A stretch of DNA of 64,000 nucleotides from Thermoplasmata archaeon (GTDB lineage Archaea > Thermoplasmatota > DTKX01 > DATEUP01), in NCBI GenBank assembly GCA_041485285.1, contig JBGPJF010000001.1, positions 17,669 through 81,668 on the forward strand. Reading direction: 5' to 3'. Under the pieces are notes generated by a model, which was not told where the DNA came from, made no database searches, and was given only the letters and a program-made list of their open reading frames with translations. Position 1 is the first letter of the stretch; every line of letters starts with the position of its first letter. This document shows positions 5,200 through 33,456 of the stretch, piece after piece. Both the position numbers and the translations under genes were made by a program.

Positions 5200-5371
5200 C
5201 TTCTCAAATCCCGCGCCCGCCACGCGCCGACGCTACGCCTGAAAAGGCCCACCGCACGTATAAGGGGGTTTGTCACGCCCCGTGGGGCGGTCCGTCAGAT
5301 TCTGTGCGGCGGGGCCCTGCCCGTGCTCTTTGCTCGCCTCGACCCGCGGCAGGCCAAGCAGCGCGAGGGCT

Positions 5372-5518
5372 TCAGTCGTCGGTCATCATGCCGTTCGCGG
5401 CATCGAGCGTGAGTTCCTGCTTGTGCTTGTCGCGGACGTGCGCGACGGCGAAGTACGCGACTTCCTTGTGGTCGTGGCTCTTCACAACGAATCCGCAGGT
5501 GCAGATGATCTTCTTCAT
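5372..5518 (-). CDS. DUF1059-like small metal-binding protein
   Basis: MKKIICTCGFVVKSHDHKEVAYFAVAHVRDKHKQELT matches the DUF1059 pattern (C-x-C...H). The longer ORF N-terminus looks like non-coding readthrough. Confidence 0.45.
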   Translation of the reverse strand: MKKIICTCGFVVKSHDHKEVAYFAVAHVRDKHKQELTLDAANGMMTDD

Positions 5519-5680: not shown

Positions 5681-6124
5681 TCATGGGATTCCAAGGGCGG
5701 CAATCACCTCAGCGGTGGTCACGACTGGCACGGGCGCCTTTGCAAGGAGCTCCTTGTCCTGCGTCCACAGGGTAGCGCTAAGCGCGAGCGCCGCGGCCAC
5801 ATAGGGGGCATCGAGCGGATTGCCTTTGCCCAAGATTGCCTCCGCTTGCGCCAATCGCTTGCGGATAATCGCCAGGGGGACCTCGCCGATCCGGTCGCGC
5901 AGCGCATCGAGAAGGAGATCGAAGGCGGCTTCCGTCGCCCTGCTCTTGGCCAGCAGGTGCGCTCGGTTCCGATCAAACTCCGACCACATCGTCGCGGGGG
6001 TGTAGAGGTCGAGTCCGCCGTAGAGCAGCAAGCGCCGCGTTGTCCCGTCGCGCAGGAGCGCGCCAAAGAGGATGTTGGCGTCCACGACGACGCGCCCGTC
6101 GAGTCGGGGGTGGCGGGCCGTCAT
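5681..6124 (-). CDS. vapC: PIN-domain toxin
   Basis: MTARHPRLDGRVVVDANILFGALL... has a PIN-domain N-terminus. Its ATG overlaps the stop of the upstream antitoxin as ATGA. Confidence 0.7.
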   Translation of the reverse strand: MTARHPRLDGRVVVDANILFGALLRDGTTRRLLLYGGLDLYTPATMWSEFDRNRAHLLAKSRATEAAFDLLLDALRDRIGEVPLAIIRKRLAQAEAILGKGNPLDAPYVAAALALSATLWTQDKELLAKAPVPVVTTAEVIAALGIP

Positions 6125-22836: not shown

Positions 22837-25167
22837 GTGCCGACATCCGGACTCCGGCGCGACGCACGCGCACCGCGCCGGCCCGAGGCCTTCCTGCTTG
22901 CGGGCCTTTTGCTCGCCACCCTCGGAACCTCGTGGCTCCCTACGGCCTCAGCGAGCCCCCCCGGCTGGTTTGGCTTGGGCGTCGTGGACGCCGTTAACGG
23001 CTTTGCGGCGAAGAACCCTTTCCTGGTTTTTGACTCCGACGGGGACGCCTTTGCGTTCTGGGACGAGCAGTGGACGCTCGACATCCCGAGTTACGAATAT
23101 GCATGGGGCGCATCGTTCAACCGGACGACCGGTTGGGGAACGCGCGAGAACCTGACGACGGCCGCGGCCGAGATCGACTGGATGGATGCCGCCGCCGCCT
23201 GCCCCGACGGCAGTGTCGTGGCGGTGGGCGAAGGCGACGGCGTCCAGGCGCGCGTTTTCACACGGGCGGCCGGCTGGGGCACTTCCACCCACATCGGACA
23301 TGACGGCGCGTACGGCGGGCCGGAGGTCGTCTGCGACTCCACGGGGGTCGCGACGGCGGTTTGGGGCGAGTACGACGACCCCTATTCGTACGTGATGGTG
23401 TCCCGCTACTACCCCGCTTCCGGGTGGACCACCAAGACACGGATCTCTATCGCGAACGAGGACAGCGAGGACCCCTCGATCGCAGTCGATGGGGCCGGCA
23501 ACGTGACGGTTGCGTTTCACTCGTTCCCGGCCGTAGCCCAGGGGGTGTACGTGAGCCGTTTTAACGAGAGCGCGGGGTGGAGCGGGGCGGGTCTCATCGG
23601 GCCGGATGGAAACCTTTTCAGTAGCCTGCCGCGCGTCGTCGCCGACGCTTCGGGGAATGCAACCGTCGTGTGGCCCGGGTTCCTTGCGGGCGTTAACGGT
23701 ACGACCCTCATCACGGTGCGGTACCGTCCAAGCTTCGGTTGGTCGCCGCCCTTCGGGCCAGACCTCAACAGTGCGCAACCCGGACGCGTGGTGGACCTTG
23801 GGATCGACGGCGGGGGCAATGTCATCGCGCTCTGGGCTGTGGGGGACGACGTCTACACGGCCCGCCTCCCACCGGTCGGACCCTGGGGGCCCGCCCAGAA
23901 ACTCACGCGGTGGCCGGACCTCGACACGCGGTGGCCCCACCTTGCCGTCGCAGGAAACGGCGATGCGGTTGCGGTGTGGTCGGCGTATTGGAACAACACT
24001 TCAGGCGTCGAGATGGCGCGTTTTGACCCGGCCACAGGTTGGGGGGCCGCTGAGTACCTGGTAGAGACGACACCTTGGCGCGCCTTTTACCCGCGGGTTG
24101 CCGTCGGCGGCGGGGGACGCTTCGGCGTCACATGGCACCAGGGGAGCCCTTCCGATGTGTGGGCCACTTTCTTCGCCCCCCAAGCTCCGACGATCGTCAT
24201 TTGGGAGCCGCAACCCGGGGCCACGACCGACGTCCCGCGCGTGCGGGTATCAGGGTCCGTGACGAACGCGGCCCGCGTGGCGGTAAACGGGCTGCTCGTG
24301 GACGTCCAGCCCAACGGCACCTTTTCGCTCGTGGTTGCGCTGTCCCCAGGGAACAACACGATTACCGGAACGGCCTGGGACGCGCTTGGCCATGCCGCGA
24401 TCGCGTCGGTGGTCGTCCGATTCGACGACCCCGTGCCCGGCCTGGGTGATGCCCTCGAAGCGGCGCGCGCCGACCTTGCCAACCTGTCCGCGACCTTGAA
24501 TCGCACTGCAGACAAGCTTGCGGCCGCCGAACGGCAACTTGACGCGGCGTCGCTCGCTCTCATCGAAACGCGGGCCGATCTGAACGCAACGGCTGCCGAA
24601 CTCGACGCGGCCGAAGCCCGGCTTGGGGGCGCTGAAGGGGCGGTCAACAACCTCACGGGCGAACTTGTGGCCGCGGCGGAGGAGCTTGCGCGGGTCTGGG
24701 ACTCGCTCAACGGAACCAAGGCATCCCTTGCAACCGCCGAATCGGCGCTCGGGGGGCTCGCGGACGGCTTGGCCGCGGCCAATGCCACCCTGGTGGAACT
24801 GCGCGCGAGCTTTGACGCCCAACTTGCCGAGATGCAGACCTTGCAGGCCGCCATCGCGGTGCGCGCGGCGGCCGAGCAGCGCCTGCTCGACGACCTGAGG
24901 GCCATAGGGGACGAACTCCGAGGGGCCCGCGCGCAACTCAACGAAAGGGATGCCCGCCTTCAGAGCACGGAGACCTCGATGCGCGCCCTCGAAACCGCGC
25001 AGGGCGGCTTCTTCGAGGTCCTGATTGCCATGGCGGCTGGCCTCATGGTCGCGATGGCCGCGCTCCACCGGCGCCACGAGCGGAAGATGCGCCAGCTGTT
25101 CAGCACCTTTGCGCAGCGGACCGGCCCGGCGGCCGAACGGCCGCCTCAGGCGCGAAGGGGCCGGTAG
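22837..25167 (+). CDS. Paralog of the preceding gene with the same architecture: signal peptide, W-repeats, Ig-like domain, sequon-rich coiled coil, C-terminal TM
   Basis: Signal MPTSGLRRDARAPRRPEAFLLAGLLLATLG. Repeats GVATAVWGEY / GNATVVWPGF / GNVIALWAVGDD / GDAVAVWSAYW. Coiled coil ...LANLSATLNRTADKLAAAERQLDAAS.... TM VLIAMAAGLMVAMAAL. Confidence 0.7.
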   Translation: MPTSGLRRDARAPRRPEAFLLAGLLLATLGTSWLPTASASPPGWFGLGVVDAVNGFAAKNPFLVFDSDGDAFAFWDEQWTLDIPSYEYAWGASFNRTTGWGTRENLTTAAAEIDWMDAAAACPDGSVVAVGEGDGVQARVFTRAAGWGTSTHIGHDGAYGGPEVVCDSTGVATAVWGEYDDPYSYVMVSRYYPASGWTTKTRISIANEDSEDPSIAVDGAGNVTVAFHSFPAVAQGVYVSRFNESAGWSGAGLIGPDGNLFSSLPRVVADASGNATVVWPGFLAGVNGTTLITVRYRPSFGWSPPFGPDLNSAQPGRVVDLGIDGGGNVIALWAVGDDVYTARLPPVGPWGPAQKLTRWPDLDTRWPHLAVAGNGDAVAVWSAYWNNTSGVEMARFDPATGWGAAEYLVETTPWRAFYPRVAVGGGGRFGVTWHQGSPSDVWATFFAPQAPTIVIWEPQPGATTDVPRVRVSGSVTNAARVAVNGLLVDVQPNGTFSLVVALSPGNNTITGTAWDALGHAAIASVVVRFDDPVPGLGDALEAARADLANLSATLNRTADKLAAAERQLDAASLALIETRADLNATAAELDAAEARLGGAEGAVNNLTGELVAAAEELARVWDSLNGTKASLATAESALGGLADGLAAANATLVELRASFDAQLAEMQTLQAAIAVRAAAEQRLLDDLRAIGDELRGARAQLNERDARLQSTETSMRALETAQGGFFEVLIAMAAGLMVAMAALHRRHERKMRQLFSTFAQRTGPAAERPPQARRGR

Positions 25168-25234
25168 CGGTAGAACACATGCGCGTAGGCCGGCCTGTGC
25201 GCGTTGGCGCCGGCCATCATGTGCGGTTGGCGAG

Positions 25235-25768
25235 TTAGCCGCCCCCGCGTGGGCGCTTCGACCGGCTTGGCGTTACAATGATCGATTCGCCGGACACCTG
25301 CGCTTCGAGGACGTCCCCCGGCCGGGCGTTGAGTTTCTTCGTTGCGCCGCGGGGCAGGCGAATCACGACCTCTCGATCCGCCTTCCGGACGAATCCCTTT
25401 GGCACTAACCACCTCATTCCATCCGGTACTTCCACCCATTCGCCCTCAGGCAGCGCGTCGATGTCCGCCATCGAGCGGATGCGAACCTTCCTCATCGAAC
25501 CCTCCTCCCTCGGTGTCGCAGTAGGTGCTTTTCGCTGAATGTAGCCCGGCGTGCCGTCACGAGCTCGAAGGCGCTGGGGTCTTGTGCCGACTCCTGGAGA
25601 ACCCTTGAAAAGAGTCTTTCCATGAGTTCTGCCAATGATGGTCAAGCGACCGGCCGCCCAGCGCTGATATTGCTTGGACACGAGGACGGCGTAGACCTCT
25701 TCCTTGCTCACGCCGTGTTTTGCGATGTGGTCCATCGCCCGTTCCGTCCAGATCAGGTGTCGGCGCAC
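25235..25768 (-). CDS. In-frame fusion of a BrnT/DUF497-like toxin domain (N-terminal, GTG start) and an AbrB/SpoVT-like swapped-hairpin domain (C-terminal; internal ATG at 25495)
   Basis: N-terminal MRRHLIWTERAMDHIAKHGVSKEEVYAVL matches the DUF497 pattern W...KHGVS.EE. C-terminal ...REVVIRLPRGATKKLNARPGDVLEAQVSGESIIVTP is AbrB-like. No stop separates the two parts, unlike the downstream paralogous pair. Confidence 0.45.
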   Translation of the reverse strand: MRRHLIWTERAMDHIAKHGVSKEEVYAVLVSKQYQRWAAGRLTIIGRTHGKTLFKGSPGVGTRPQRLRARDGTPGYIQRKAPTATPREEGSMRKVRIRSMADIDALPEGEWVEVPDGMRWLVPKGFVRKADREVVIRLPRGATKKLNARPGDVLEAQVSGESIIVTPSRSKRPRGGG

Positions 25769-25913
25769 GCTGGTGCGCCGCGGCCGAAGCTGATGAGGGT
25801 TCCCTGAGGGTAATCGCTCGCCGTGCGATTATTCCGTGTTGGCGCATCCCACGCAATCACTTCGAGGCCCGGTAGCGATCGAAAACGCGCCGGTCGTCCA
25901 GCAATTGCGCGGG

Positions 25914-26180
25914 TCAAGGCCGAGCGGTCTGCTTGGTCTTCTTGCGGGGCGAGCGTTGCACGACGACAGCGCCGGCCTTGATGCGTGCACGCAGCACCTC
26001 ACCCTCCTTGGCGCGGAATTTCTTCCGGACATTTGCGGGAAGGGGCACCACGAGCTCGCGGCCCCGTACGTGAACCTTTTCGTCCACCCAGCGGAATTTG
26101 AGCCCTCCGACGACCTCCACCCATTCGCCCTCAGGAATGGCTCCGAGTTCCTCGACTCCGGGGCGGTAGAGGCGCTTCAT
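25914..26180 (-). CDS. AbrB/SpoVT-like domain protein (putative antitoxin), paralog of the C-terminal part of the previous ORF
   Basis: MKRLYRPGVEELGAIPEGEWVEVVGGLKFRWVDEKVHVRGRELVVPLPANVRKKFRAKEGEVLRARIKAGAVVV. Its ATG overlaps the upstream toxin stop as ATGA. Confidence 0.5.
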   Translation of the reverse strand: MKRLYRPGVEELGAIPEGEWVEVVGGLKFRWVDEKVHVRGRELVVPLPANVRKKFRAKEGEVLRARIKAGAVVVQRSPRKKTKQTARP

Positions 26181-26455
26181 TGGACTCCCTTCCCACGGCG
26201 GAGCAATAAGGCTTTCTCGGAAGGGTCTGCGGGCCTGCAGGTTCCGATCAGAAGAAGATTCGAGTTTGGTTCGGTTCGATGGAGGAACATCACTAGGTAA
26301 CGGCCGCGAATCCGGCCGATGATCATCACGCCCCCGGCGTGATTCCGCCAATAGAACCGCCCTGATCGGAGCAAATCGTCCACATCGACCTTCGTGACCG
26401 CGTGGCGCGCGATGTGCTCCTCGCCTTCGAGCGTCCACGCGATGTCGAACCACAC
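26177..26455 (-). CDS. BrnT/DUF497-like toxin
   Basis: MWFDIAWTLEGEEHIARHAVTKVDVDDLL...RYLVMFLHRTEPNSNLLLIGTCRPADPSEKALLLRRGKG has the DUF497 organisation. Confidence 0.5.
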   Translation of the reverse strand: MWFDIAWTLEGEEHIARHAVTKVDVDDLLRSGRFYWRNHAGGVMIIGRIRGRYLVMFLHRTEPNSNLLLIGTCRPADPSEKALLLRRGKGVQ

Positions 26456-26564
26456 GGAGCGGCGTGACTGGGCGCCATCTTGAATCTCTCGTGATGACCA
26501 TCACTTGCTCGCTGATCAATCGTGGAGCCAAGCGCGAGCCAAGCGCGAAGGCGCCTGCATGGCG

Positions 26565-27050
26565 TCACTTCGCGGGCCGGTACCTGTAGAACACGCGCCC
26601 GTCTGCAAGCTTGTGCACCTTGAACTCCAGGGGCATCCCGATTTTCATGTCCTCGTGCTTCGCGTCATCCACGCGCGCGAGGATCTTGAACCGGGTCCCC
26701 TCGACCTCGACGACCGCGATGACGAAGGGCATGTCCTGCTCCATCCCCATCGGCGCGCCGAGCATCATGGCCGTGTGCGCGAACACCTTCCCTTTCTTCG
26801 ACATTTCGCGCCACTCCAGGGTCTCGATCGTGCACTGGTCGCAGGCCACGCGCGGCGGGAAGTGCAGGCGCTCGCAGTGCTTGCAGTAGGTCGTGATGAA
26901 CCGCCCCTCGCGCAGCGCGTCGAAGAACGGCGAGATCTGCGTGTACGCCGCGTCCTCGAGCGGGTAGAAGTCGAGGAGGTAGGGGAGCGGCTCAGGGACG
27001 GGGTTCGCGGGCGGCAGCTTCGCGGCGGCCTTGGGGGCGGGCGTGGTCAT
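26565..27050 (-). CDS. DUF35 Zn-ribbon/OB-fold protein, partner of thiolase
   Basis: C-x2-C...C-x2-C (CKHCERLHFPPRVACDQC) followed by an OB-fold. ATG at 27050 (MTTPAP). 4 bp after the thiolase stop. Confidence 0.8.
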   Translation of the reverse strand: MTTPAPKAAAKLPPANPVPEPLPYLLDFYPLEDAAYTQISPFFDALREGRFITTYCKHCERLHFPPRVACDQCTIETLEWREMSKKGKVFAHTAMMLGAPMGMEQDMPFVIAVVEVEGTRFKILARVDDAKHEDMKIGMPLEFKVHKLADGRVFYRYRPAK

Positions 27051-27054
27051 CGCA

Positions 27055-28248
27055 TCAGCCCCCCACCGTCGGCGAGCGGCCCCACACAAGGACGCTGTGG
27101 ACGTTCGCGGCGCCCGATAGGTTGTGCGTCATGGCCATTTCGGCGCCCTCGACCTGGCGCTTGGCAGGCACCTTGGACTGGAACTGCCAGAGAACCTCCG
27201 CAATCTGCGAGATGCCGGTGGCGCCGAGCGGGTGACCCATGCCGAGGAGCCCGCCGCGCGGGTTGAATGGAATCTTGCTGCCGATGTACGGGTTGCCCTC
27301 TTCGATGAATTTCCCGCCCTCGCCCTTCTTGCAGAAGCCGAGGTCCTCGTACTCGATGAGCTCGGAAATGGAGAAGCAGTCGTGCGACTCGACGAAGTCG
27401 AGGTCGCTTGGGCCGATTCCCGCCATCTTGTAGGCCTCGCGGCTCGCGATCTTCGCGGGCTCCCAGGTGGTCCAGTTCGAGAGGTTGGCGAGGTTCCCGC
27501 CGATCGCGCTCTGGCCGGAGCCTTGGATGTAGGCGGCCTGGTCGGTGAATTCCTTCGCGCGCTCCGCGCAGGTCACGAGCACGGCGGCTGCGCCGTCGGT
27601 GATCCCGGAGCAGTCGAAGAGCTTGAGGGGCGGCGCGATCATGCGCGACGAGAGCACCTTCTCCTTAGGGACGGGCTTTTGGAATTGCGCGTAAGGATTG
27701 GTCGTGGAGTTCTCGTGGTTTTTCTCGGAGACCAGGGCCATCTGCTCCTCGGTGGTCCCATATTCGTGCATGTGCCGCATCGCGGTGAGCGCGAAGAACG
27801 GCGGAGCGGATGCGCCCGCGGGGCCGTCGAACTCGCGGTCGAGAACGCAAGCCATCGAGGTCTGCGCTTCGGCCATGTTGGGGAGATTCATTTTCTCGAC
27901 GCCGATGCACAGCGCCACCTCCGAGAGGCCCGAGGCGATCGCCATCGCCGCGGAGCGCACGGCGCTCTGTCCGGACGAGCAGGCGAGTTCGGTGCGCTGC
28001 ACGACGCGCCAGGGCTTCACGCCGAGCATGTCGGCGACGAGCGGGGCCACGTGCGACTGGAACGCGAAGCGCTCGGGTTCCGCCGCGCCAACGAACAGCG
28101 AATCGACCTGCTTGCGGTCAAGGTTCGGGACCGCCTTGAAGAGTTCACGCCCGGCCTCCTGGGCAAGCTCGCGCCAGGTCGCGTTGCGGATGCCCCAGCG
28201 CGTGTGGCCGGCGGCCACGACGGCGACTTTGCCCTTGATGCCGGACAT
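27055..28248 (-). CDS. Thiolase-like protein (archaeal acetyl-CoA acetyltransferase / SCP-x-type)
   Basis: 397 aa with catalytic-Cys region ...TELACSSGQSAV... and C-terminal GHPLGATG. Confidence 0.85.
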   Translation of the reverse strand: MSGIKGKVAVVAAGHTRWGIRNATWRELAQEAGRELFKAVPNLDRKQVDSLFVGAAEPERFAFQSHVAPLVADMLGVKPWRVVQRTELACSSGQSAVRSAAMAIASGLSEVALCIGVEKMNLPNMAEAQTSMACVLDREFDGPAGASAPPFFALTAMRHMHEYGTTEEQMALVSEKNHENSTTNPYAQFQKPVPKEKVLSSRMIAPPLKLFDCSGITDGAAAVLVTCAERAKEFTDQAAYIQGSGQSAIGGNLANLSNWTTWEPAKIASREAYKMAGIGPSDLDFVESHDCFSISELIEYEDLGFCKKGEGGKFIEEGNPYIGSKIPFNPRGGLLGMGHPLGATGISQIAEVLWQFQSKVPAKRQVEGAEMAMTHNLSGAANVHSVLVWGRSPTVGG

Positions 28249-28287
28249 CGACGTTGCGGACGAAGCGCCGGGGGATAAAGGGTGCGT
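28148..28287. repeat. Direct-repeat copy 1, about 140 bp, covering the thiolase start codon, its first ~34 codons and its upstream region
   Basis: About 90% identical to 29688..29826 by direct comparison. For example gggcaagctcgcgccaggtcgcgttgcggatgccccagcgcgtgtggccg versus gggcaagctcacgccagatctcgttgcggatgccccagcgcgagtggccg. Confidence 0.6.
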
Positions 28288-28311
28288 TTACCGTCGGCGG
28301 GGGGCGCCACC

Positions 28312-29616
28312 TTACGCGCGCCGGGTGAGGAACCAGTCCAAGGCCCCGTGGCCCTGCACTCCCTGGGGGAGCTCCCCGCCGGGAGTGTCCAAACTCACGA
28401 GTTGCAGCTTCGCGCGCGGGTACCGCCGCGCGCCTTCCTTGAGTGCTCGCGCTTCGCGCTCCAGGGTCTCGCCCTCCGGGGCCGCACACACCTGGATCAA
28501 GGCCTCCTCCCCCGAAGGGAAACGAGCGAGGAAATCCACCTCGAAGCCGCTCGAAGTGCGGACATAGGCGACCTGCGCGCCTTGGCGATCCAACTCGAGG
28601 AGCACGCAAGTTTCGAGGGCGTGGCCGAGGTTTGCGCGCCCCGATCGGTCGAAGACCGGGATAAGGCCCGGGTCGATCGGGTACACCTTCCGCGGGTTGA
28701 CCATCCGCTGCCGTTCGGAGCCGGCTGCAATGGAGATGGTCCGGACGAGGAAGGCGTCCTCGAGGTGGGACAGGTAGGCGTGCAACGTGCCCTTCGCGAC
28801 CTGCATCCCCTGCGAACGCAAGTCGTTGTAGAACTTGTTCACGCTGAATGCCCCCCCGGCGTTTGCAAGCAGGTGGCGGGCCATCGATCGGAGGGCCAAG
28901 GGGTGACTAACGGCGTGGCGCTCTACCACGTCACGCAAAAGGGCCACATCTACGAGGCCGCGCAGGAGCTCCGTCCGGTCGCGGGCTCCCAACCCGACGG
29001 CTTCAGGAAAGCCTCCGCACTTGAGGTACTCGCGAAGTGCCTTCCCAAGCGCGGAGCGCTCCGCCTTCGCAAGCCGCTGAGGTGCCTTCTTAGGTTCTCG
29101 CCCGAGGTGGCGCAGGTATTCACGAAAGCTGAAAGGGTAAACAAGCGCCTCGACCGCGCGCCCCCGCATGCTTGTGGCCACTTCACGTGAAAGCAGCCGC
29201 GCCGAAGACCCGGACAGGAAGAGGTCCAACCGTTCGGTGTCGAGCAGCCGGCGCGCGAACGTCTCCCAACCGCGGACCGTCTGAATCTCATCGAGGAACC
29301 ACGTCGCCTTGCGCTTGTCGCGCCAGGCGGGGTGGAGCAGGTAGTATTCCTCGGCCACGTGCTGGAGGTCGGCCGCGGTCATCCCCCCGAGCCGCTCGTC
29401 CTCGAAACCCAAGTAGAGGAGGCCCTCGCGGGGCGTGCCGCCGGCCAAGCGCTGCGCGAGGAGCTGCCAGAGGAAGGTGGTCTTGCCAGCCCGGCGGGGC
29501 CCGATAACGGCGACGGCCCTCCCCGGCACATTGGGGACATGGATGTCGCGCGGCGTCAGGGGCGGTGGGGCCGTGGCGAGGGAGTCGACGATCTTCTGGC
29601 GGAGGAGCTCGCGCAT
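28312..29616 (-). CDS. AAA+ ATPase, DUF4143 family (COG1373-like)
   Basis: Walker A VIGPRRAGKTTFL, Walker B WFLDEIQ, and a C-terminal DUF4143-like region. ATG at 29616 (MRELLRQ). An AT-rich gaaatagataatattt TATA box lies upstream, with an 11-mer tttgtcctcct repeated twice in the promoter. Confidence 0.8.
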   Translation of the reverse strand: MRELLRQKIVDSLATAPPPLTPRDIHVPNVPGRAVAVIGPRRAGKTTFLWQLLAQRLAGGTPREGLLYLGFEDERLGGMTAADLQHVAEEYYLLHPAWRDKRKATWFLDEIQTVRGWETFARRLLDTERLDLFLSGSSARLLSREVATSMRGRAVEALVYPFSFREYLRHLGREPKKAPQRLAKAERSALGKALREYLKCGGFPEAVGLGARDRTELLRGLVDVALLRDVVERHAVSHPLALRSMARHLLANAGGAFSVNKFYNDLRSQGMQVAKGTLHAYLSHLEDAFLVRTISIAAGSERQRMVNPRKVYPIDPGLIPVFDRSGRANLGHALETCVLLELDRQGAQVAYVRTSSGFEVDFLARFPSGEEALIQVCAAPEGETLEREARALKEGARRYPRAKLQLVSLDTPGGELPQGVQGHGALDWFLTRRA

Positions 29617-29683
29617 TTGTCCTCCTAAGAAGGACGAAATAGATAATATTTGTCCTCCTGATGGGGACAATTTTGGCGCCCCC

Positions 29684-29826
29684 TCAACGGCCCGCCTCAT
29701 GGGCAAGCTCACGCCAGATCTCGTTGCGGATGCCCCAGCGCGAGTGGCCGGGGGCCAGGGCCGCGACTTTGCCCTGGAGGCCGGACATCGGCTGGGCCCA
29801 CGAGGAGCCGGGGTAAGAATAGTGCG
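29684..29826 (-). pseudogene. Duplicated thiolase 5' fragment, which is direct-repeat copy 2 of the pair flanking the ATPase gene
   Basis: Encodes MSGLQGKVAALAPGHSRWGIRNEIWRELAHEAGR* compared with the thiolase N-terminus MSGIKGKVAVVAAGHTRWGIRNATWRELAQEAGRELF. It terminates after 34 codons. Confidence 0.55.
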
Positions 29827-29905
29827 CGCAGGAGGTTCGCCCAGGCGCCCTTGGCGCGGGCCCGCGATTCCTCCAAGCCCCGCCCCATTGGCCCCCAAAA
29901 AGTAA

Positions 29906-31090
29906 GTGACCGTTGCCATATCCCTCGCCCGTCTCATGCCGTGGTCCCCGTTTGGCAAGAAAGCCGATGACCCTCGGCCCGCCGGGCCGACCGCCTACGC
30001 TTCGCTGCGAGAAAAGTGGCTCCTCGGCGAGGTGATCCGGCTCGCCGGCCCAGGCGAACAAGACTCGGTCATCGCGGTTCTGTTTGACAAGGCCGTTGGC
30101 GACGGCCACGTCACGTTTGTGGCCGCAGAGGATGGAACGGCGAGCATGTACACAAGCAGGGGTGGTGGGATTATTGGGTCGGGGCGCCACGCCTCAGCGG
30201 CAGCCGCAGCGCTTGGCCTCGTTGGCTGTGCCCAGAGTTATGTGAGCCTCTTGCCCCTCGCTAAGTCCTTCCCCCTCCCCCAGGCGCCGCGCGTTGCCTT
30301 CCACATCGTCACGCGCGGCGGGGTGCACTCAGCCGCTTTCGACCCTGGCGCGATGCGCAGCAGCCACCGCCTTTCGCCCCTCGAAACTGCGCGGGGAAAC
30401 CTCGTCACCCAGACGAGACTGCTCGACGAGCGCAGACAACGAGGGGCCCTCGGTCCACACGAAATCGATGCGCAGGTTTTTGCCGATGGCGGAATCTGCG
30501 TGCGCGTTCCGCCGGACCCGACCCCAACTTGGCTTACCGCAAACGGGCTGAAAGTGGTCCTTGCCATCGGACACGCAAACGGGGACCGTTTGGCCGTTCA
30601 CATCGAACCGGGGGACGAGAAGGCACAAGCGGGAGCGCTCCGAGCGATCGACGCAGCCGGGTACACGGGGGCGTTTTCCGAGGTGCCCAAGATGATCGGC
30701 TACAAGAATCGGATGGCGACCATTCACCACGCGGTCGAGAGCGCCCGCGCGGACATCGTTTTGGAGCAACTTGCCCTCGGCACGAGTATCGAAGCGCGCG
30801 ACGGCGACGGCTACACGCCCCTGTTGCTCGCCGCGATGCAAGGGCGGACGGCAATCTTCCAAGTCCTCGTGCAACGGCATGCCGACTTCCGTGCCCGCGA
30901 CCGGTTCCAGAACACCGCGTTAATCTACGCCGCGCAGGTCGGCGATGTGGGGATTGCCAGGCACCTGTACATCCTTGGTGCAGACCTGGGCGCAAAAGGC
31001 CAGAACGGCCTCACCGCGCTCCAAGTCGCCACGCAGTGCGGCCACCGCGAGGTGGCGCAGCTCTTGCAGGCCGTCAGCGCCAGCGAATAG
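29906..31090 (+). CDS. Ankyrin-repeat protein (3-4 C-terminal ANK repeats) with a ~270-aa N-terminal domain of unknown family
   Basis: ...DGDGYTPLLLAAMQGRTAIFQVLVQRHADFRARDRFQNTALIYAAQVGDVGIARHLYILGADLGAKGQNGLTALQVATQCGHREVAQLL has ANK consensus. Confidence 0.7.
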   Translation: MTVAISLARLMPWSPFGKKADDPRPAGPTAYASLREKWLLGEVIRLAGPGEQDSVIAVLFDKAVGDGHVTFVAAEDGTASMYTSRGGGIIGSGRHASAAAAALGLVGCAQSYVSLLPLAKSFPLPQAPRVAFHIVTRGGVHSAAFDPGAMRSSHRLSPLETARGNLVTQTRLLDERRQRGALGPHEIDAQVFADGGICVRVPPDPTPTWLTANGLKVVLAIGHANGDRLAVHIEPGDEKAQAGALRAIDAAGYTGAFSEVPKMIGYKNRMATIHHAVESARADIVLEQLALGTSIEARDGDGYTPLLLAAMQGRTAIFQVLVQRHADFRARDRFQNTALIYAAQVGDVGIARHLYILGADLGAKGQNGLTALQVATQCGHREVAQLLQAVSASE

Positions 31091-31151
31091 GCACCCGCTC
31101 AACGAGGCCAACCTGGCGGCCGAGGTAGCCCGCCGTGTTGCGGCCAGAAGC

Positions 31152-32849
31152 CTACTTCCTGCCCTTGCCCTTCTCCTCGCTGTCCTCAACGAGCGAGCCC
31201 GCCGCCGACAAGTTCCTCAGGATGTTCTTGACCTCGTCGTCCGAGAGCTTGCTTAGCACATTCTGGAGCTTCGACACGTCGATCCCCGCGTCGGTCGCGA
31301 GCGACGCGAGCCGCCCGAGGCTGCCCCCGCCGCCGCTTGCAACGCCGCGCACGAGTTGACCGAGCGACACGCCGGTCATCGACTCGAGCATCGCGCTGGC
31401 CTTCATGGCCCCTTGCGCGACGTTCTCGACGAGCCCCGCCGGCCCGCCGGCGCCGCCCATCATGATGAGCTTGTCCGTGCCCGCGAGCGGCTGGGCCATC
31501 TCGCGCACGATGCTCGGCAGGCCCTCGACCACGACCTGGAGTTTGGCCGCGTCCTGGTACCTCGACCAGGCCTCGGCCTTCTTCATCATGGCCGCGGCCG
31601 TCGCCGTCCCGGTCGCCTCGATGGCGGCGGCCTCGGAGAGACCCTTTGCCTTGATGATGTCGGCCTCCGCGAGACCGACCGCGCGCGTCTTGTCGCCGTC
31701 GGCGACCCCCGTCACGCGGATGATGTTCGCGTTGGCTTCTCCTTGGACCTGGATGACGTCGGCCTGCGCCTTCCCGCGCGCAAAGGTCGCGGAGGCCTCC
31801 CCGTTGGCGCGCAGCACGGTCGCGCGCTGGTCGCCCTCGGCAATGGTCGCCGCCCGGTCGGCCTCGGCTTTGGCCGGGACGCGGATTGTGGCTTCGACCT
31901 CCTTCGTCTTGCGCTCGATTTCCTTCTGCTGGAGGTCGATCTGCCGCTCCTTCTCCTTGATCTGGATGTTGACCTCGGCCTGGACGAGTTCCTGGCGCCG
32001 CACGCGGTCCTGCAGGTCGAAGGCGATCTCCTTGTTCGCGCGCTCAATTTCGACTTGCGCCTGGTACTGGTTGACCTTGACGTCGCGCTCCCGCTGGGCC
32101 GCGGCAATCGCCGCGTCGGCCTCGAAGCGGGCCTGCTGCCCCTGCTTGTCGTAATCGGCCGACTTCTGGATCGCTTCCATGCGCGCCGCGGATTCGCCGA
32201 TGACGGCGTCACGCGTGGCGTTGGCCTGGCCGACCCGCGCGTCCCTTTGGACTTCGGCGGTGCGCCGCTTGCCGAGCGCTTCGAGGTACCCTTGCGTGTC
32301 GCTGATGTCCTTGACCTGGAGCGAGATGATTTCGAGCCCCATGTTGCCAAGCTCGGGCACCGCGACTTCGCGGATCTTGCTTGCCAGCGTCTCGCGGTCG
32401 GCGTTGATCTGCTCGACTTCGAGGGTCGCGCACACGCCGCGGACCTGGCCGATGATCGTGGCCTCCGCGAGCTGGCCCACGCCCTCGCGGGTCTTGCCAA
32501 GCAGCTGCACCGAGGCGACGTTGAGCTTCGTCTTCTCGTTCGAGATCTTGATCTGCGCGACGCACTCGACCGTGAGGGGCACCCCCGAGTGGGTGATGAC
32601 CGCCGGGACGTGGATTTCGAGCGTCTGCAGCGAGAGGTCGAGGTACGCGACTTGCTCGACGATGGGGTAGACGAATTTGCCGCCGCCTTGGATGACCTCG
32701 AACCCGATGTCCTTCCTCCGGCGCCCGAACACGACCATGGCTTGGTTCGGGGGGACGCGCTTGTAGCGCCGGGCGTAGATCACGAAGCCTGCAATTACAA
32801 TCACGATTACAGCCACAAACACAATCGGAAGAATTTCTTCGCCAGCCAT
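31152..32849 (-). CDS. Flotillin / SPFH (band-7) family protein
   Basis: N-terminal TM, SPFH domain, and a long Ala/Glu-rich coiled coil (EA repeats). ATG at 32849 (MAGEEILPIV). Confidence 0.85.
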   Translation of the reverse strand: MAGEEILPIVFVAVIVIVIAGFVIYARRYKRVPPNQAMVVFGRRRKDIGFEVIQGGGKFVYPIVEQVAYLDLSLQTLEIHVPAVITHSGVPLTVECVAQIKISNEKTKLNVASVQLLGKTREGVGQLAEATIIGQVRGVCATLEVEQINADRETLASKIREVAVPELGNMGLEIISLQVKDISDTQGYLEALGKRRTAEVQRDARVGQANATRDAVIGESAARMEAIQKSADYDKQGQQARFEADAAIAAAQRERDVKVNQYQAQVEIERANKEIAFDLQDRVRRQELVQAEVNIQIKEKERQIDLQQKEIERKTKEVEATIRVPAKAEADRAATIAEGDQRATVLRANGEASATFARGKAQADVIQVQGEANANIIRVTGVADGDKTRAVGLAEADIIKAKGLSEAAAIEATGTATAAAMMKKAEAWSRYQDAAKLQVVVEGLPSIVREMAQPLAGTDKLIMMGGAGGPAGLVENVAQGAMKASAMLESMTGVSLGQLVRGVASGGGGSLGRLASLATDAGIDVSKLQNVLSKLSDDEVKNILRNLSAAGSLVEDSEEKGKGRK

Positions 32850-32853
32850 GGTT

Positions 32854-33456
32854 TCACACTCCAGTCTTGTTTGGTTCCTTGAGTTCTTCAACAAGTGCGA
32901 TGGATTCCTGGATCCGCGTGATCAGCACCGTGGTGCCGACCCCCAACCTGCCGCCTTGGGCCCGCGCGCTCACCGACTGGCGGATGCCGCGCACGGAGAA
33001 CGAGACCGCGCCGATGCCCCCCTCGGGGATGGCTTCCGTGACGGTCGCCACTTTTCCTTCATACTCCTTTTCATGGATGGTTGACGATGCCTGGGACTTC
33101 ACGAGGAAGTTCGCCACGACCAAGAACAGGCCGGCGAAGGCAACGACGCCCGTGACGACCGCGGTGATGGCCGTCAGGAGGGGGTCCCATCCGCCAAACG
33201 AAAGGGCGGTCCCCACAGCGCCAGTGACTCCCATGAAAGTAGATATCATCGGCATGGAGAGCGGCGACAGCCCGGATGAGTCGGCCGCCCCAAGGTCGTG
33301 GCCCAAGCCCCCAACATCTCCGCCCACATCTCCGCCGACGTCACCTCCGACATCGCCGGTGTCGCCACCCGACCCTCCGATGAGGGCAAACAGGAGGAAG
33401 ACGATGCCCGCGAGCATCATGCCGATGTAGATGTACGCATCCGCGGAAATTGCCAT
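32854..33456 (-). CDS. NfeD-like membrane protein with a C-terminal OB-fold (flotillin partner)
   Basis: TM segments and a C-terminal ...VATVTEAIPEGGIGAVSFSVRGIRQSVSARA OB-fold. A (GGDV)4 low-complexity tract. Stop lies 4 bp before the flotillin start. Confidence 0.7.
   Translation of the reverse strand: MAISADAYIYIGMMLAGIVFLLFALIGGSGGDTGDVGGDVGGDVGGDVGGLGHDLGAADSSGLSPLSMPMISTFMGVTGAVGTALSFGGWDPLLTAITAVVTGVVAFAGLFLVVANFLVKSQASSTIHEKEYEGKVATVTEAIPEGGIGAVSFSVRGIRQSVSARAQGGRLGVGTTVLITRIQESIALVEELKEPNKTGV

What the first reader, a model, noticed from the sequence alone, without database searches (positions are those of the whole stretch)
28148..29826. DUF4143 AAA+ ATPase gene behaving as a 1.4-kb cassette, flanked by ~140-bp imperfect direct repeats that duplicate the thiolase 5' end
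Copy 1 (28148-28287) contains the functional thiolase start and its upstream region. Copy 2 (29688-29826) is about 90% identical and retains a 34-codon pseudo-N-terminus, MSGLQGKVAALAPGHSRWGIRNEIWRELAHEAGR*. Exactly one gene with its own AT-rich promoter lies between them, so a tandem duplication is unlikely. This pattern fits target-site capture or duplication during insertion of a mobile single-gene cassette. DUF4143/COG1373 ATPases are notoriously multi-copy in archaeal genomes, and such flanks would be direct evidence for how they move. The 11-mer tttgtcctcct also occurs twice around the ATPase start and TATA box.
Basis: seen in the sequence. Interest (0 to 1): 0.6.

Follow-up and report, generated by a model that had tools for sequence, protein, structure and literature searches.

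The report
Defence ATPase cassette inserted into thiolase start
A single horizontally acquired gene for a candidate anti-virus ATPase, carrying its own conserved promoter, was inserted into the start of an archaeal thiolase gene; about 140 bases of that start were duplicated, and related copies of the gene in bacteria and archaea often show the same arrangement.

Summary
Window 28147-28286 and 29687-29826 are a 140-nt direct repeat, 81% identical (not ~90%; E 1e-34), with only two copies in the window. They bracket one AAA_14+DUF4143 ATPase gene. The upstream copy is a decaying relic of the thiolase core promoter plus codons 1-34.

Relatives settle the history. L190 and L191-193 have flotillin, ankyrin and thiolase with no ATPase and a single thiolase 5' end. 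The ATPase plus the duplicate is therefore an insertion.

The ATPase matches PDC-S01, a widespread candidate defence gene. Across about 80 homologous loci it behaves as a promoter-plus-ORF cassette. Copies that are 88-95% identical sit in unrelated flanks, sharing DNA only from about -57 to +3..+60. In 20 of 69 loci, locus-specific direct repeats of 33-408 nt flank the gene, against 0/56 and 7/84 in controls.

Cassette ends are ragged, repeat lengths vary, and no transposase or integrase lies inside. Insertion by host recombination or repair, filtered by selection, is the most likely mechanism but is not proven. Integrase action in trans or self-mobilisation by the ATPase-nuclease remain open.

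The parts
29687..29826 (-). Repeat copy 2. Relic of the thiolase core promoter (TATA mutated to TTCTT) plus codons 1-34. It is closed by a TGA at 29686-29684 that lies in cassette sequence, and it sits at the ancestral position next to the ankyrin gene.
   Evidence: It has 12 private substitutions against 4-5 in each other lineage. Of 13 coding differences, 4 are synonymous and 9 non-synonymous (read), which looks neutral. Its left flank (29827-29905) is homologous to the ankyrin-thiolase spacer of L191 (p about 0.002).
29617..29686 (-). Cassette 5' region. Box 1 is TTGTCCCCATCAGGAGGACAA (29670-29650). An A/T-rich spacer ATATTATCTAT (29649-29639) is the putative -10 or TATA element. Box 2 is TTCGTCCTTCTTAGGAGGACAA (29638-29617) and ends at the ATG.
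   Evidence: Boxes sit at -53 and -20 in 69/80 loci (one or more strict matches) and 35/80 (both), with 6 matches elsewhere in 472 kb. Homology to the nearest relatives (L099, L196, L198) starts at -56 to -60.
28312..29616 (-). ATPase gene (434 aa): AAA_14 P-loop domain, a helical middle region and a C-terminal DUF4143 domain of the PD-(D/E)xK fold. It matches PDC-S01, a candidate defence gene.
   Evidence: Pfam. PADLOC PDC-S01, E 1.6e-89. All family-invariant residues are present. The AF2 model has pLDDT 70, with an ORC/Cdc6/MuB/DnaA-like AAA+ domain and a C-terminal alpha-beta3-alpha-beta fold.
28287..28311 (-). 25-nt tail between the ATPase stop codon and repeat copy 1. Its origin is unassigned.
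   Evidence: It has no significant similarity to the left flank of copy 2 or to the orthologous spacers. Cassette homology with relatives ends about 15 nt before the stop codon.
28147..28286 (-). Repeat copy 1. This is the working thiolase core promoter (TTTAT at 28279-28275) plus codons 1-34.
   Evidence: It is 89% identical to the L001 orthologue and keeps the orthologue-majority base at 17 of the 26 sites where the two copies differ.
27055..28248 (-). Intact thiolase gene (397 aa). It is followed by its DUF35/ChsH2-type partner gene (27089-26565).
   Evidence: Pfam. The thiolase is 92% and 90% identical to the L001 and L002 orthologues.
29906..31090 (+). Ankyrin-repeat gene. It gives context only: it is not part of the cassette and was already present before the ATPase arrived.
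   Evidence: Pfam. An ankyrin gene lies in the same place and orientation in L190 and L191-193, which lack the ATPase. It is absent from L001 and L180-189.

Best explanation
Shown: this is a horizontally acquired single-gene cassette. It consists of a roughly 55-70-nt promoter with two palindromic operator-like boxes, followed by the ORF of a PDC-S01-type AAA_14/DUF4143 ATPase. It lies inside the 5' end of the thiolase gene of a Thermoplasmatota lineage whose relatives carry flotillin, ankyrin and thiolase in that order without it. The insertion is associated with a 140-bp duplication (at most 165 bp) covering the thiolase core promoter and first 34 codons. The downstream copy keeps the thiolase intact. 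The upstream copy is a relic that has since drifted. The event is old: the copies are 81% identical, and the ATPase's nearest known relative is 77% identical.

Inferred: the ATPase binds its own boxes through its helical/winged-helix middle region and represses itself. It serves the host as a defence ATPase-nuclease and has been kept by selection.

Inferred mechanism of insertion: host recombination or repair, not a cassette-encoded transposase. One route is a single illegitimate or microhomology-mediated insertion whose two joints fell in overlapping order, equivalent to fill-in of a long staggered break. The other is single-crossover (Campbell-type) integration of a circular cassette that carried a copy of the conserved thiolase start from a related donor. 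Insertions that destroyed the thiolase start would presumably have been lost, so only a duplicating outcome survived.
For: Empty sites: L190 and L191-193 have flotillin, ankyrin and thiolase with no ATPase and one thiolase 5' end. L001 and L180-189 have flotillin next to thiolase. None of 80 thiolase loci has the ATPase within 8 kb.

Copy 2 is the displaced relic. It has 12 private changes, a mutated TATA, and a left flank homologous to the L191 spacer.

The cassette is the unit of transfer. Pairs of loci 88-95% identical over the gene share DNA only from about -57..-113 to +3..+138, although up to 1500 nt of flank is available. The promoter boxes sit at fixed positions in 69/80 loci. More than 7,700 homologues were found; the 120 best listed are 67-77% identical, and the sources name them as Thermoplasmatota, Planctomycetota and Alphaproteobacteria.

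Flanking direct repeats recur in 20/69 loci, against 0/56 around thiolase genes (p 2e-6) and 7/84 in shifted controls (p 0.001). They are locus-specific.

No transposase-like signature. Left and right ends are ragged even among recent pairs. No terminal repeats are conserved. Repeat length runs from 33 to 408 nt. Pfam finds no transposase or integrase domain in the ATPase.

A second filled/empty pair exists: L132 against L194/L195.
Against: The mechanism is inferred, not seen. The window's junctions are too old to show microhomology.

The two copies share at most one derived site, so they may not descend from one in-situ duplication.

At tRNA sites the repeats start in the anticodon loop, and in L140/L137 a tyrosine integrase abuts one copy. 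This points to site-specific recombination for at least some family members.

The left end of the shared DNA clusters tightly at -51..-69 in many pairs. That could reflect a defined cleavage site rather than selection on the promoter.

About 70% of loci show no detectable flanking repeat. My blast search also missed repeats under about 30 nt, such as those in L117.
Confidence: 0.55

Rival explanations
1. Integrase-made att sites. The cassette is an integrase-less mini-island, comparable to a cis-mobilizable element or satellite. A tyrosine recombinase acting in trans integrated it at the thiolase 5' end. The element supplied a replacement promoter and N-terminus (copy 1). The displaced host start became copy 2. 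Precedents recalled from memory are e14/phage 21 at icd and SXT at prfC.
For: The L163 repeat runs from the anticodon loop of tRNA-Arg to its 3' end plus the terminator, with the intact tRNA on one side. L137/L140 carry two tRNA-Lys 3' halves, and a tyrosine integrase ORF ends at the upstream copy. An integrase lies 0.8 kb downstream of the ATPase in L099. Integrase-like ORFs lie within 2 kb in L102 and L176. A tRNA gene or tRNA half lies within about 550 nt in about 8 of 75 loci, against about 2.6 expected. In L132, L134, L140 and L163 the mismatches cluster in one part of the repeat beside a long identical run, as expected for a diverged arm plus an identical core.
Against: Cassettes found in different contexts do not share any flanking att-like sequence. 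In L163 the cassette proper (-100..+34, by comparison with L158) is smaller than the att-bounded segment, so the att sites belong to the landing place. Mismatch clustering is not consistently on one side (pooled p 0.13). No integrase-like ORF was found in the 64-kb window, although this was only a low-sensitivity tblastn with two integrases. Copy 1 is the copy most like the orthologues, which gives no sign of foreign origin.
Confidence: 0.2
2. Self-mobilising gene. The ATPase-nuclease itself promotes insertion. It binds the two boxes at the cassette's left end and nicks target DNA tens to hundreds of bases apart, which produces long, variable target duplications.
For: The protein combines an ORC/MuB/DnaA-like AAA+ module with a PD-(D/E)xK-fold domain (PMC3424549; PMC12988326). 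Sequence conservation is very high across domains of life, as for selfish genes. The left boundary of shared DNA is sharp, just outside box 1. In WIN, L120, L125, L128, L132 and L161 the repeats abut the cassette within 5-56 nt.
Against: No PD-(D/E)xK enzyme is known to carry out strand transfer (my own knowledge). Motif III is an invariant Q-V-C instead of E-x-K, so nuclease activity is uncertain. The right end is ragged and no box lies at the 3' end. No near-identical intragenomic copies were seen: the two ATPases in L103 are 32% identical. Most loci lack repeats.
Confidence: 0.12
3. Two unrelated steps. A small tandem duplication of the thiolase start arose first, and the ATPase later happened to land at its junction. 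Alternatively, the repeat is a chance or paralogous similarity.
For: Short tandem duplications are common. The age of the event hides the order of steps.
Against: This needs two rare events at the same base pair. None of the relatives' loci shows a duplicated thiolase start without the ATPase. The same gene-plus-flanking-repeat pattern recurs in about 18-20 independent loci. Chance is excluded (E 1e-34).
Confidence: 0.06

Closest known systems
PDC-S01, a 'phage defence candidate' single-gene system in PADLOC-DB (COG1373, AAA_14 + DUF4143)
   Same: Full-length match to the PDC-S01 profile (E 1.6e-89), with the same two Pfam domains. The literature describes PDC-S01 as the fourth most common defence candidate in prokaryotes. 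It reports enrichment in Archaea including Thermoplasmatota, repeated inter-domain transfer, and an ATPase fused to a PD-(D/E)xK domain (PMC12988326). DUF4143 is listed in the PD-(D/E)xK superfamily (PMC3424549).
   Different: In the papers I could search, I found no description of the conserved two-box promoter, of the promoter-plus-ORF unit of transfer, or of flanking duplications of neighbouring gene ends. Anti-phage activity of PDC-S01 is still untested according to PMC12988326.
Integrase-less, att-flanked islands: cis-mobilizable elements of streptococci (from memory); integrase-bearing islands at tmRNA/tRNA genes carrying defence cargo (PMC12595487)
   Same: A short cargo segment is bounded by direct repeats made from the end of the adjacent gene. 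This includes tRNA 3' halves beginning in the anticodon loop (L163, L137/L140), with an integrase next door in L140. The cargo is a defence gene.
   Different: In the window the target is the 5' end of a protein-coding gene, and no integrase was detected. Cassettes in different contexts share no att sequence. The unit is a single gene of about 1.4 kb.
Prophage e14/phage 21 at icd and SXT at prfC: integration inside a gene with an element-borne replacement end (from memory)
   Same: A long, imperfect direct repeat of a gene end. One copy completes the working gene and the other is a displaced pseudo-end.
   Different: Those elements are large and encode their own integrase. Here the insert is one ATPase gene, and copy 1 shows no sign of foreign origin.
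Transposons and insertion sequences with target-site duplications
   Same: An insert bracketed by a duplication of target sequence.
   Different: Those duplications are short and of fixed length. The elements have defined, usually inverted, ends and encode a transposase. Here repeats are 33-408 nt and variable, ends are ragged, and there is no transposase domain.
Integron gene cassettes and Acinetobacter pdif modules
   Same: Single-gene modules that move between contexts. In the L103 group, small cassettes are separated by a repeat in one orientation.
   Different: There is no attC-like hairpin (z -1 to +1). No XerC/D-type pdif site was found beside a distant homologue on an Acinetobacter plasmid. 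The window has no such repeat.

Membership tests
PDC-S01 / COG1373 ATPase (AAA_14 + DUF4143) | N-terminal AAA_14 P-loop domain and C-terminal DUF4143 domain in one protein of about 400-450 aa | tested here: met
   Pfam AAA_14 E 6.3e-31 (residues 33-168) and DUF4143 E 2.7e-16 (228-378). PADLOC PDLC04787 PDC-S01 E 1.6e-89 over residues 35-431.
PDC-S01 / COG1373 ATPase (AAA_14 + DUF4143) | Canonical PD-(D/E)xK catalytic residues (D ... E-x-K) | tested here: inconclusive
   E335 and D361 (in EVDF) are invariant. The third motif is an invariant Q375-V-C377, not E-x-K. The fold topology alpha-beta3-alpha-beta is predicted with pLDDT 76-92.
PDC-S01 / COG1373 ATPase (AAA_14 + DUF4143) | Protects cells against phage or virus infection | not testable with these tools
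Transposon / insertion sequence | Encodes a transposase (DDE, HUH, serine or tyrosine type) | tested here: not met
   Only AAA_14 and DUF4143 are found in the single ORF between the repeats.
Transposon / insertion sequence | Defined conserved termini, and a short target duplication of fixed length | tested here: not met
   The ends of shared DNA vary from -57 to -227 and from +3 to +138 among pairs at least 94% identical. The 3' tails are unrelated. Repeats are 33-408 nt.
Integrase-mobilised island / cis-mobilizable element | Bounded by direct repeats (attL/attR) derived from the end of the target gene | tested here: met
   Window: a 140-nt repeat of the thiolase 5' end. L163, L137 and L140: tRNA 3' halves.
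Integrase-mobilised island / cis-mobilizable element | A cognate integrase in the element, or in a related element of the same genome | tested here: inconclusive
   None was detected in the 64-kb window by tblastn with two integrases, which is a low-sensitivity test. One is present next to the repeat in L140/L137 and near the ATPase in L099. The rest of the genome was not available.
Integrase-mobilised island / cis-mobilizable element | The element carries its own att sequence from site to site | tested here: not met
   Closely related cassettes in different contexts share nothing beyond promoter plus ORF.
Integron cassette | attC recombination site forming an imperfect hairpin, and an IntI integrase nearby | tested here: not met
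   No inverted repeat of that kind flanks the window cassette. The repeats of the L103 group do not fold better than shuffled sequence. There is no Rfam hit in 25000-33000.
Free-standing homing endonuclease gene | A nuclease gene copied into a cognate empty allele by repair, without target duplication | tested here: not met
   The insertion is flanked by a 140-nt duplication, and the family occupies many unrelated sites.

The most novel reading that the evidence does not exclude
PDC-S01 genes are a new kind of minimal selfish-plus-useful element. A single ATPase-nuclease gene, with a promoter that may work in both bacteria and archaea, promotes its own insertion next to conserved gene ends (tRNA 3' ends, starts and ends of housekeeping genes). 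It makes long, variable target duplications that leave the target gene intact. This would explain why it is among the most abundant and most widely transferred defence candidates.
Probability: 0.12. Interest if true: 0.9.

Novelty: new variant of a known kind. Interest (0 to 1): 0.58.

Why it matters
PDC-S01 is reported as the fourth most common defence candidate in prokaryotes and as especially common in Archaea (PMC12988326). Yet its function, its regulation and the way it spreads are all unknown.

This locus, together with the family survey, yields three testable leads. First, a precise unit of transfer: about 57 nt of promoter plus the ORF. Second, a conserved pair of palindromic boxes that is an obvious candidate for self-repression. 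Its A/T-rich spacer could serve as a -10 element in bacteria and as a TATA box giving a leaderless transcript in archaea; this last point is inference. Third, a reproducible insertion signature: duplication of the end of the neighbouring gene, which lets the cassette land in or beside essential genes without killing the host.

If the duplications prove to be made by the protein itself, this would be a new mobility mechanism. If they are made by host recombination or by integrases in trans, the family is still a clean model for how single defence genes move between bacteria and archaea.

Tried and rejected
1. Genome-wide dispersed repeat: rejected. The window holds only two copies, and both derive from the thiolase start.

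2. Compositional island: no GC anomaly across the cassette.

3. Known RNA in or near the repeats: no Rfam match at E up to 0.1.

4. Longer duplication reaching into the ATPase 3' end: the left flanks of the two copies are not significantly similar (p 0.27).

5. Using mismatch position within the repeats to separate a target-site duplication from an att-type origin: mismatches cluster in some loci, but not consistently on one side.

6. Phylogeny of the 140-nt segment to date or source the copies: it is star-like and uninformative.

7. Viral carriers: no homologue in IMG/VR by pattern scan. GenBank phages and PLSDB plasmids hold only homologues below 60% identity, at best 34-35%, including 167 Acinetobacter plasmids.

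8. pdif (XerC/D) module idea for an Acinetobacter plasmid copy: no pdif-like site and no flanking repeat.

9. attC-like structure for the dispersed repeat of the L103 group: no hairpin.

10. Sequence homologue with a solved structure: none. Foldseek returns only generic AAA+ initiator and loader proteins.

11. Recent intragenomic transposition: the two ATPases in L103 are 32% identical paralogues.

12. The 12-mer TRAGGKGGCGCC at both cassette ends in the window: 10/12 match, my rough estimate p about 0.04, and absent from the relatives' cassettes. Treated as probable coincidence.
Full report
**Observation.** On the minus strand the order of features is as follows.
- Flotillin/SPFH gene, 32894-31152.
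- Ankyrin-repeat gene on the opposite strand, 29906-31090.
- Repeat copy 2, 29826-29687.
- A 70-nt A/T-rich leader.
- ATPase gene, 29616-28312.
- A 25-nt tail.
- Repeat copy 1, 28286-28147, which runs into the intact thiolase gene (28248-27055).
- The DUF35/ChsH2-type partner gene, 27089-26565.

The two copies are 140 nt long, ungapped and 81.4% identical. Blastn gives E 1e-34 inside the window, and there is no third copy. Copy 2 encodes MSGLQGKVAALAPGHSRWGIRNEIWRELAHEAGR followed by TGA. Of its 13 coding differences from copy 1, 4 are synonymous and 9 are not (read). That is the pattern of a drifting pseudogene fragment. The window has 66% G+C and the cassette shows no compositional anomaly.

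**The ATPase is an insertion.** The window comes from a Thermoplasmatota MAG. Four sets of related loci bear on this.
- None of 80 thiolase loci from species-representative genomes has the ATPase within 8 kb.
- In L001 and L180-189 (thiolase 92% identical) the flotillin gene is followed directly by the thiolase gene, about 310 nt away.
- In L002 (90% identical) the same gap holds an SPFH-like ORF and a RelE-type toxin-antitoxin pair.
- In L190 and L191-193, whose thiolases fall in the same 90%-identity protein cluster as the window's, the order is flotillin, ankyrin on the opposite strand, about 110-160 nt, then thiolase. There is one thiolase start and no ATPase.

This last arrangement is the state expected just before the insertion. 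The ATPase and the duplicated 140 nt are the only differences from it. The flank to the left of copy 2 is still recognisably homologous to the ankyrin-thiolase spacer of L191 (p about 0.002). The flank to the left of copy 1 is not. Copy 2 therefore sits in the ancestral position.

**Age of the event.** In a six-way alignment of the 140-nt segment, copy 1 is 86-89% identical to three orthologues (L001, L002, L190) and 81% to L191. Copy 2 is 76-84% identical to everything, including copy 1. At the 26 sites where the copies differ, the orthologues favour the copy 1 base at 17 and the copy 2 base at 7. Only one site is shared-derived between the two copies.

The event is therefore about as old as the split between these species. 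Alternatively, the two copies came from different lineages. The data cannot separate these possibilities. The ATPase has stayed intact and keeps every family-invariant residue, which argues that it is under selection in this host.

**What the gene is.**
- Pfam finds AAA_14 and DUF4143.
- PADLOC matches the PDC-S01 profile over the full length, E 1.6e-89.
- DUF4143/COG1373 is listed in the PD-(D/E)xK superfamily with unknown function (PMC3424549).
- PDC-S01 is described as the fourth most common defence candidate in prokaryotes. It is enriched in Archaea including Thermoplasmatota, has been transferred repeatedly between domains, and is experimentally unvalidated (PMC12988326).
- An AlphaFold model (pLDDT 70) shows an AAA+ module. 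Its nearest solved folds are ORC/Cdc6, MuB, DnaA, RuvB and clamp loaders. The helical middle region is of low confidence. The C-terminal domain is well predicted with alpha-beta3-alpha-beta topology.
- E335 and D361 are invariant. The third nuclease motif is an invariant Q-V-C rather than E-x-K, and this holds even in a 32%-identical paralogue. Nuclease activity is therefore uncertain.
- The search returned more than 7,700 homologues. The 120 best listed are 67-77% identical, and the sources name them as Thermoplasmatota, Planctomycetota and Alphaproteobacteria.

**Family survey: a promoter-plus-ORF cassette.** I fetched about 100 loci that carry homologues.

First, the 5' region is conserved. 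Two palindromic boxes with consensus TTGTCCTT-N6-AAGGACAA lie at fixed positions -53 and -20. The second box ends at the start codon, and an A/T-rich hexamer lies between them. At least one strict match is present in 69 of 80 non-redundant loci, and both are present in 35. Only 6 matches occur elsewhere in 472 kb. In the window the boxes are at 29670-29650 and 29638-29617.

Box 1 overlaps a -35-like element. Box 2 overlaps the transcription start and the ribosome-binding site. This layout is typical of self-repression, but that reading is inference. I also infer that the spacer could act as a -10 element in bacteria and as a TATA box about 27 nt before a leaderless start in archaea.

Second, pairs of loci that are 88-95% identical across the gene have unrelated flanks. 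L103 and L117 are 94.7% identical from -57 to +8, with 1500 nt of flank available on each side. Other recent pairs end at -66, -68, -73, -100 or -113 on the left, and at +3, +34, +41, +64 or +138 on the right. The window's nearest relatives (71-75% DNA identity) align from -56..-60 to about 15 nt before the stop codon. The gene moves with its promoter, but its ends are ragged.

**Flanking repeats are a family trait of mixed origin.** A blastn comparison of the 1.5 kb upstream with the 1.5 kb downstream finds a direct repeat in 20 of 69 loci, not counting the window and its duplicate contig. The rate is 0 of 56 thiolase-centred controls (p 2e-6) and 7 of 84 shifted controls in the same loci (p 0.001). 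The repeats are locus-specific. They fall into three groups.

- *Tight duplications of unique host sequence.* The upstream copy ends 5-38 nt before box 1, and the downstream copy starts 25-56 nt after the stop codon. This group includes the window (140 nt), L132 (131 nt, the 3' end of an NMT1-type gene), L125 (80 nt), L128, L120 and L161. For L132, the relatives L194 and L195 lack the ATPase.
- *tRNA-derived repeats.* In L163 the repeat runs from the anticodon loop of tRNA-Arg through its 3' end and terminator, with the intact tRNA on one side. L137 and L140 have two tRNA-Lys 3' halves, and a tyrosine integrase ORF ends at the upstream one. In L175, box 1 starts one base after the CCA end of tRNA-Asp. 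A tRNA gene or tRNA half lies within about 550 nt in about 8 of 75 loci, against about 2.6 expected under my rough assumptions.
- *Pre-existing repeats.* A same-orientation motif, GGTCYTGCAWTCCAGCAC, separates small cassettes in L103, L106, L109, L117 and L138. L122 has tandem repeats on both sides.

In L163 the cassette proper (-100..+34, by comparison with L158) is smaller than the att-bounded segment. At least there, the repeats belong to the landing site and not to the cassette.

**Mechanism.** Two things are shown: the insertion, and a duplication that spares the target gene. The process that produced them is inferred.

A transposase-type event is unlikely. There is no transposase domain, no conserved ends and no fixed duplication length.

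I favour host recombination or repair, with confidence about 0.55. One route is a single illegitimate insertion whose two joints fall in overlapping order. The other is Campbell-type single-crossover integration of a circular cassette carrying a copy of a conserved gene end. The thiolase start is 87-91% identical between species, and tRNA 3' halves are similarly conserved, so both offer portable homology.

Selection would then remove insertions that break the target. This thiolase, with its DUF35 partner, probably belongs to the archaeal mevalonate pathway and is probably essential. That point rests on my own knowledge and was not tested here. The duplicated segment begins 5-6 nt upstream of the TTTAT box (28279-28275), so copy 1 retains a core promoter.

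There are three rivals.
- Integrase action in trans (about 0.2) is supported by the tRNA cases.
- Self-mobilisation by the ATPase-nuclease (about 0.12) is suggested by the sharp left boundary beside its own binding boxes.
- Two unrelated events at the same position is the least likely (about 0.06).

**Novelty and verdict.** The gene family and its candidate defence role are known. Integrative islands with att duplications are also known. In the searchable literature I found no description of three things: the cross-domain two-box promoter, the promoter-plus-ORF unit of transfer, and the frequent duplication of neighbouring gene ends around PDC-S01 genes.

The cassette reading is supported by orthologous empty sites. 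The proposed target-site-duplication mechanism is plausible but unproven. I rate this a new variant of a known kind, with interest about 0.58.

Noticed in passing
L002:6690-7804: In a relative, the flotillin-thiolase gap holds a 201-aa ORF resembling the flotillin N-terminus plus a RelE-like toxin and a small antitoxin-like gene. L001 has nothing in this gap and the window has ankyrin plus the ATPase, so this gap is a small variable hotspot.
   Followed up: partly
window 25235-26531 (minus strand): Downstream of the DUF35 gene lie two paralogous pairs of BrnT-like toxin and AbrB/MazE-like partner. The second pair appears fused into one 177-aa ORF.
   Followed up: no
L103:2749-8836; also L106, L109, L117, L138: A same-orientation dispersed repeat (core GGTCYTGCAWTCCAGCAC within a unit of about 50-100 nt) separates small cassettes: a HigB-like toxin, two different DUF4143 ATPases and a DUF499-like gene. 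The layout resembles an integron array, but the repeats form no hairpin and no integrase was seen.
   Followed up: partly
L175:3163-3300 and L173 (about 1130-1206): In L175 the cassette's box 1 begins one base after the CCA end of an intact tRNA-Asp(GUC). A 94%-identical cassette in L173 keeps only the last 17 nt or so of that tRNA, in a different upstream context.
   Followed up: partly
window 29686-29675 and 28314-28303: A 12-mer, TRAGGKGGCGCC, lies at both ends of the cassette, just after the relic's codon 34 and starting at the ATPase stop codon. It matches at 10 of 12 positions, rough p about 0.04, and is absent from the relatives' cassettes.
   Followed up: partly
window 28312-29616 (protein residues 375-377): The third PD-(D/E)xK motif is an invariant Q-V-C instead of E-x-K across the subfamily, and also in a 32%-identical paralogue in L103. 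The nuclease domain may be inactive or may use unusual chemistry.
   Followed up: partly
L176:3605-3679 / 5885-5959 and L114:3806-3933 / 5355-5485: In two loci the ATPase is flanked by inverted rather than direct repeats: 75 nt at 95% identity and 131 nt at 75%.
   Followed up: no
PLSDB plasmids: Distant homologues (about 30% identity) occur on 167 Acinetobacter plasmids. The one locus examined (L199) has a tyrosine recombinase about 2 kb upstream but no pdif-like site.
   Followed up: partly
L196:1790-1850: In the closest relative of the window's ATPase (77% identical), a DEAD/ResIII helicase ORF ends 34 nt before the ATPase start. The helicase coding sequence therefore runs through box 1.
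   Followed up: no
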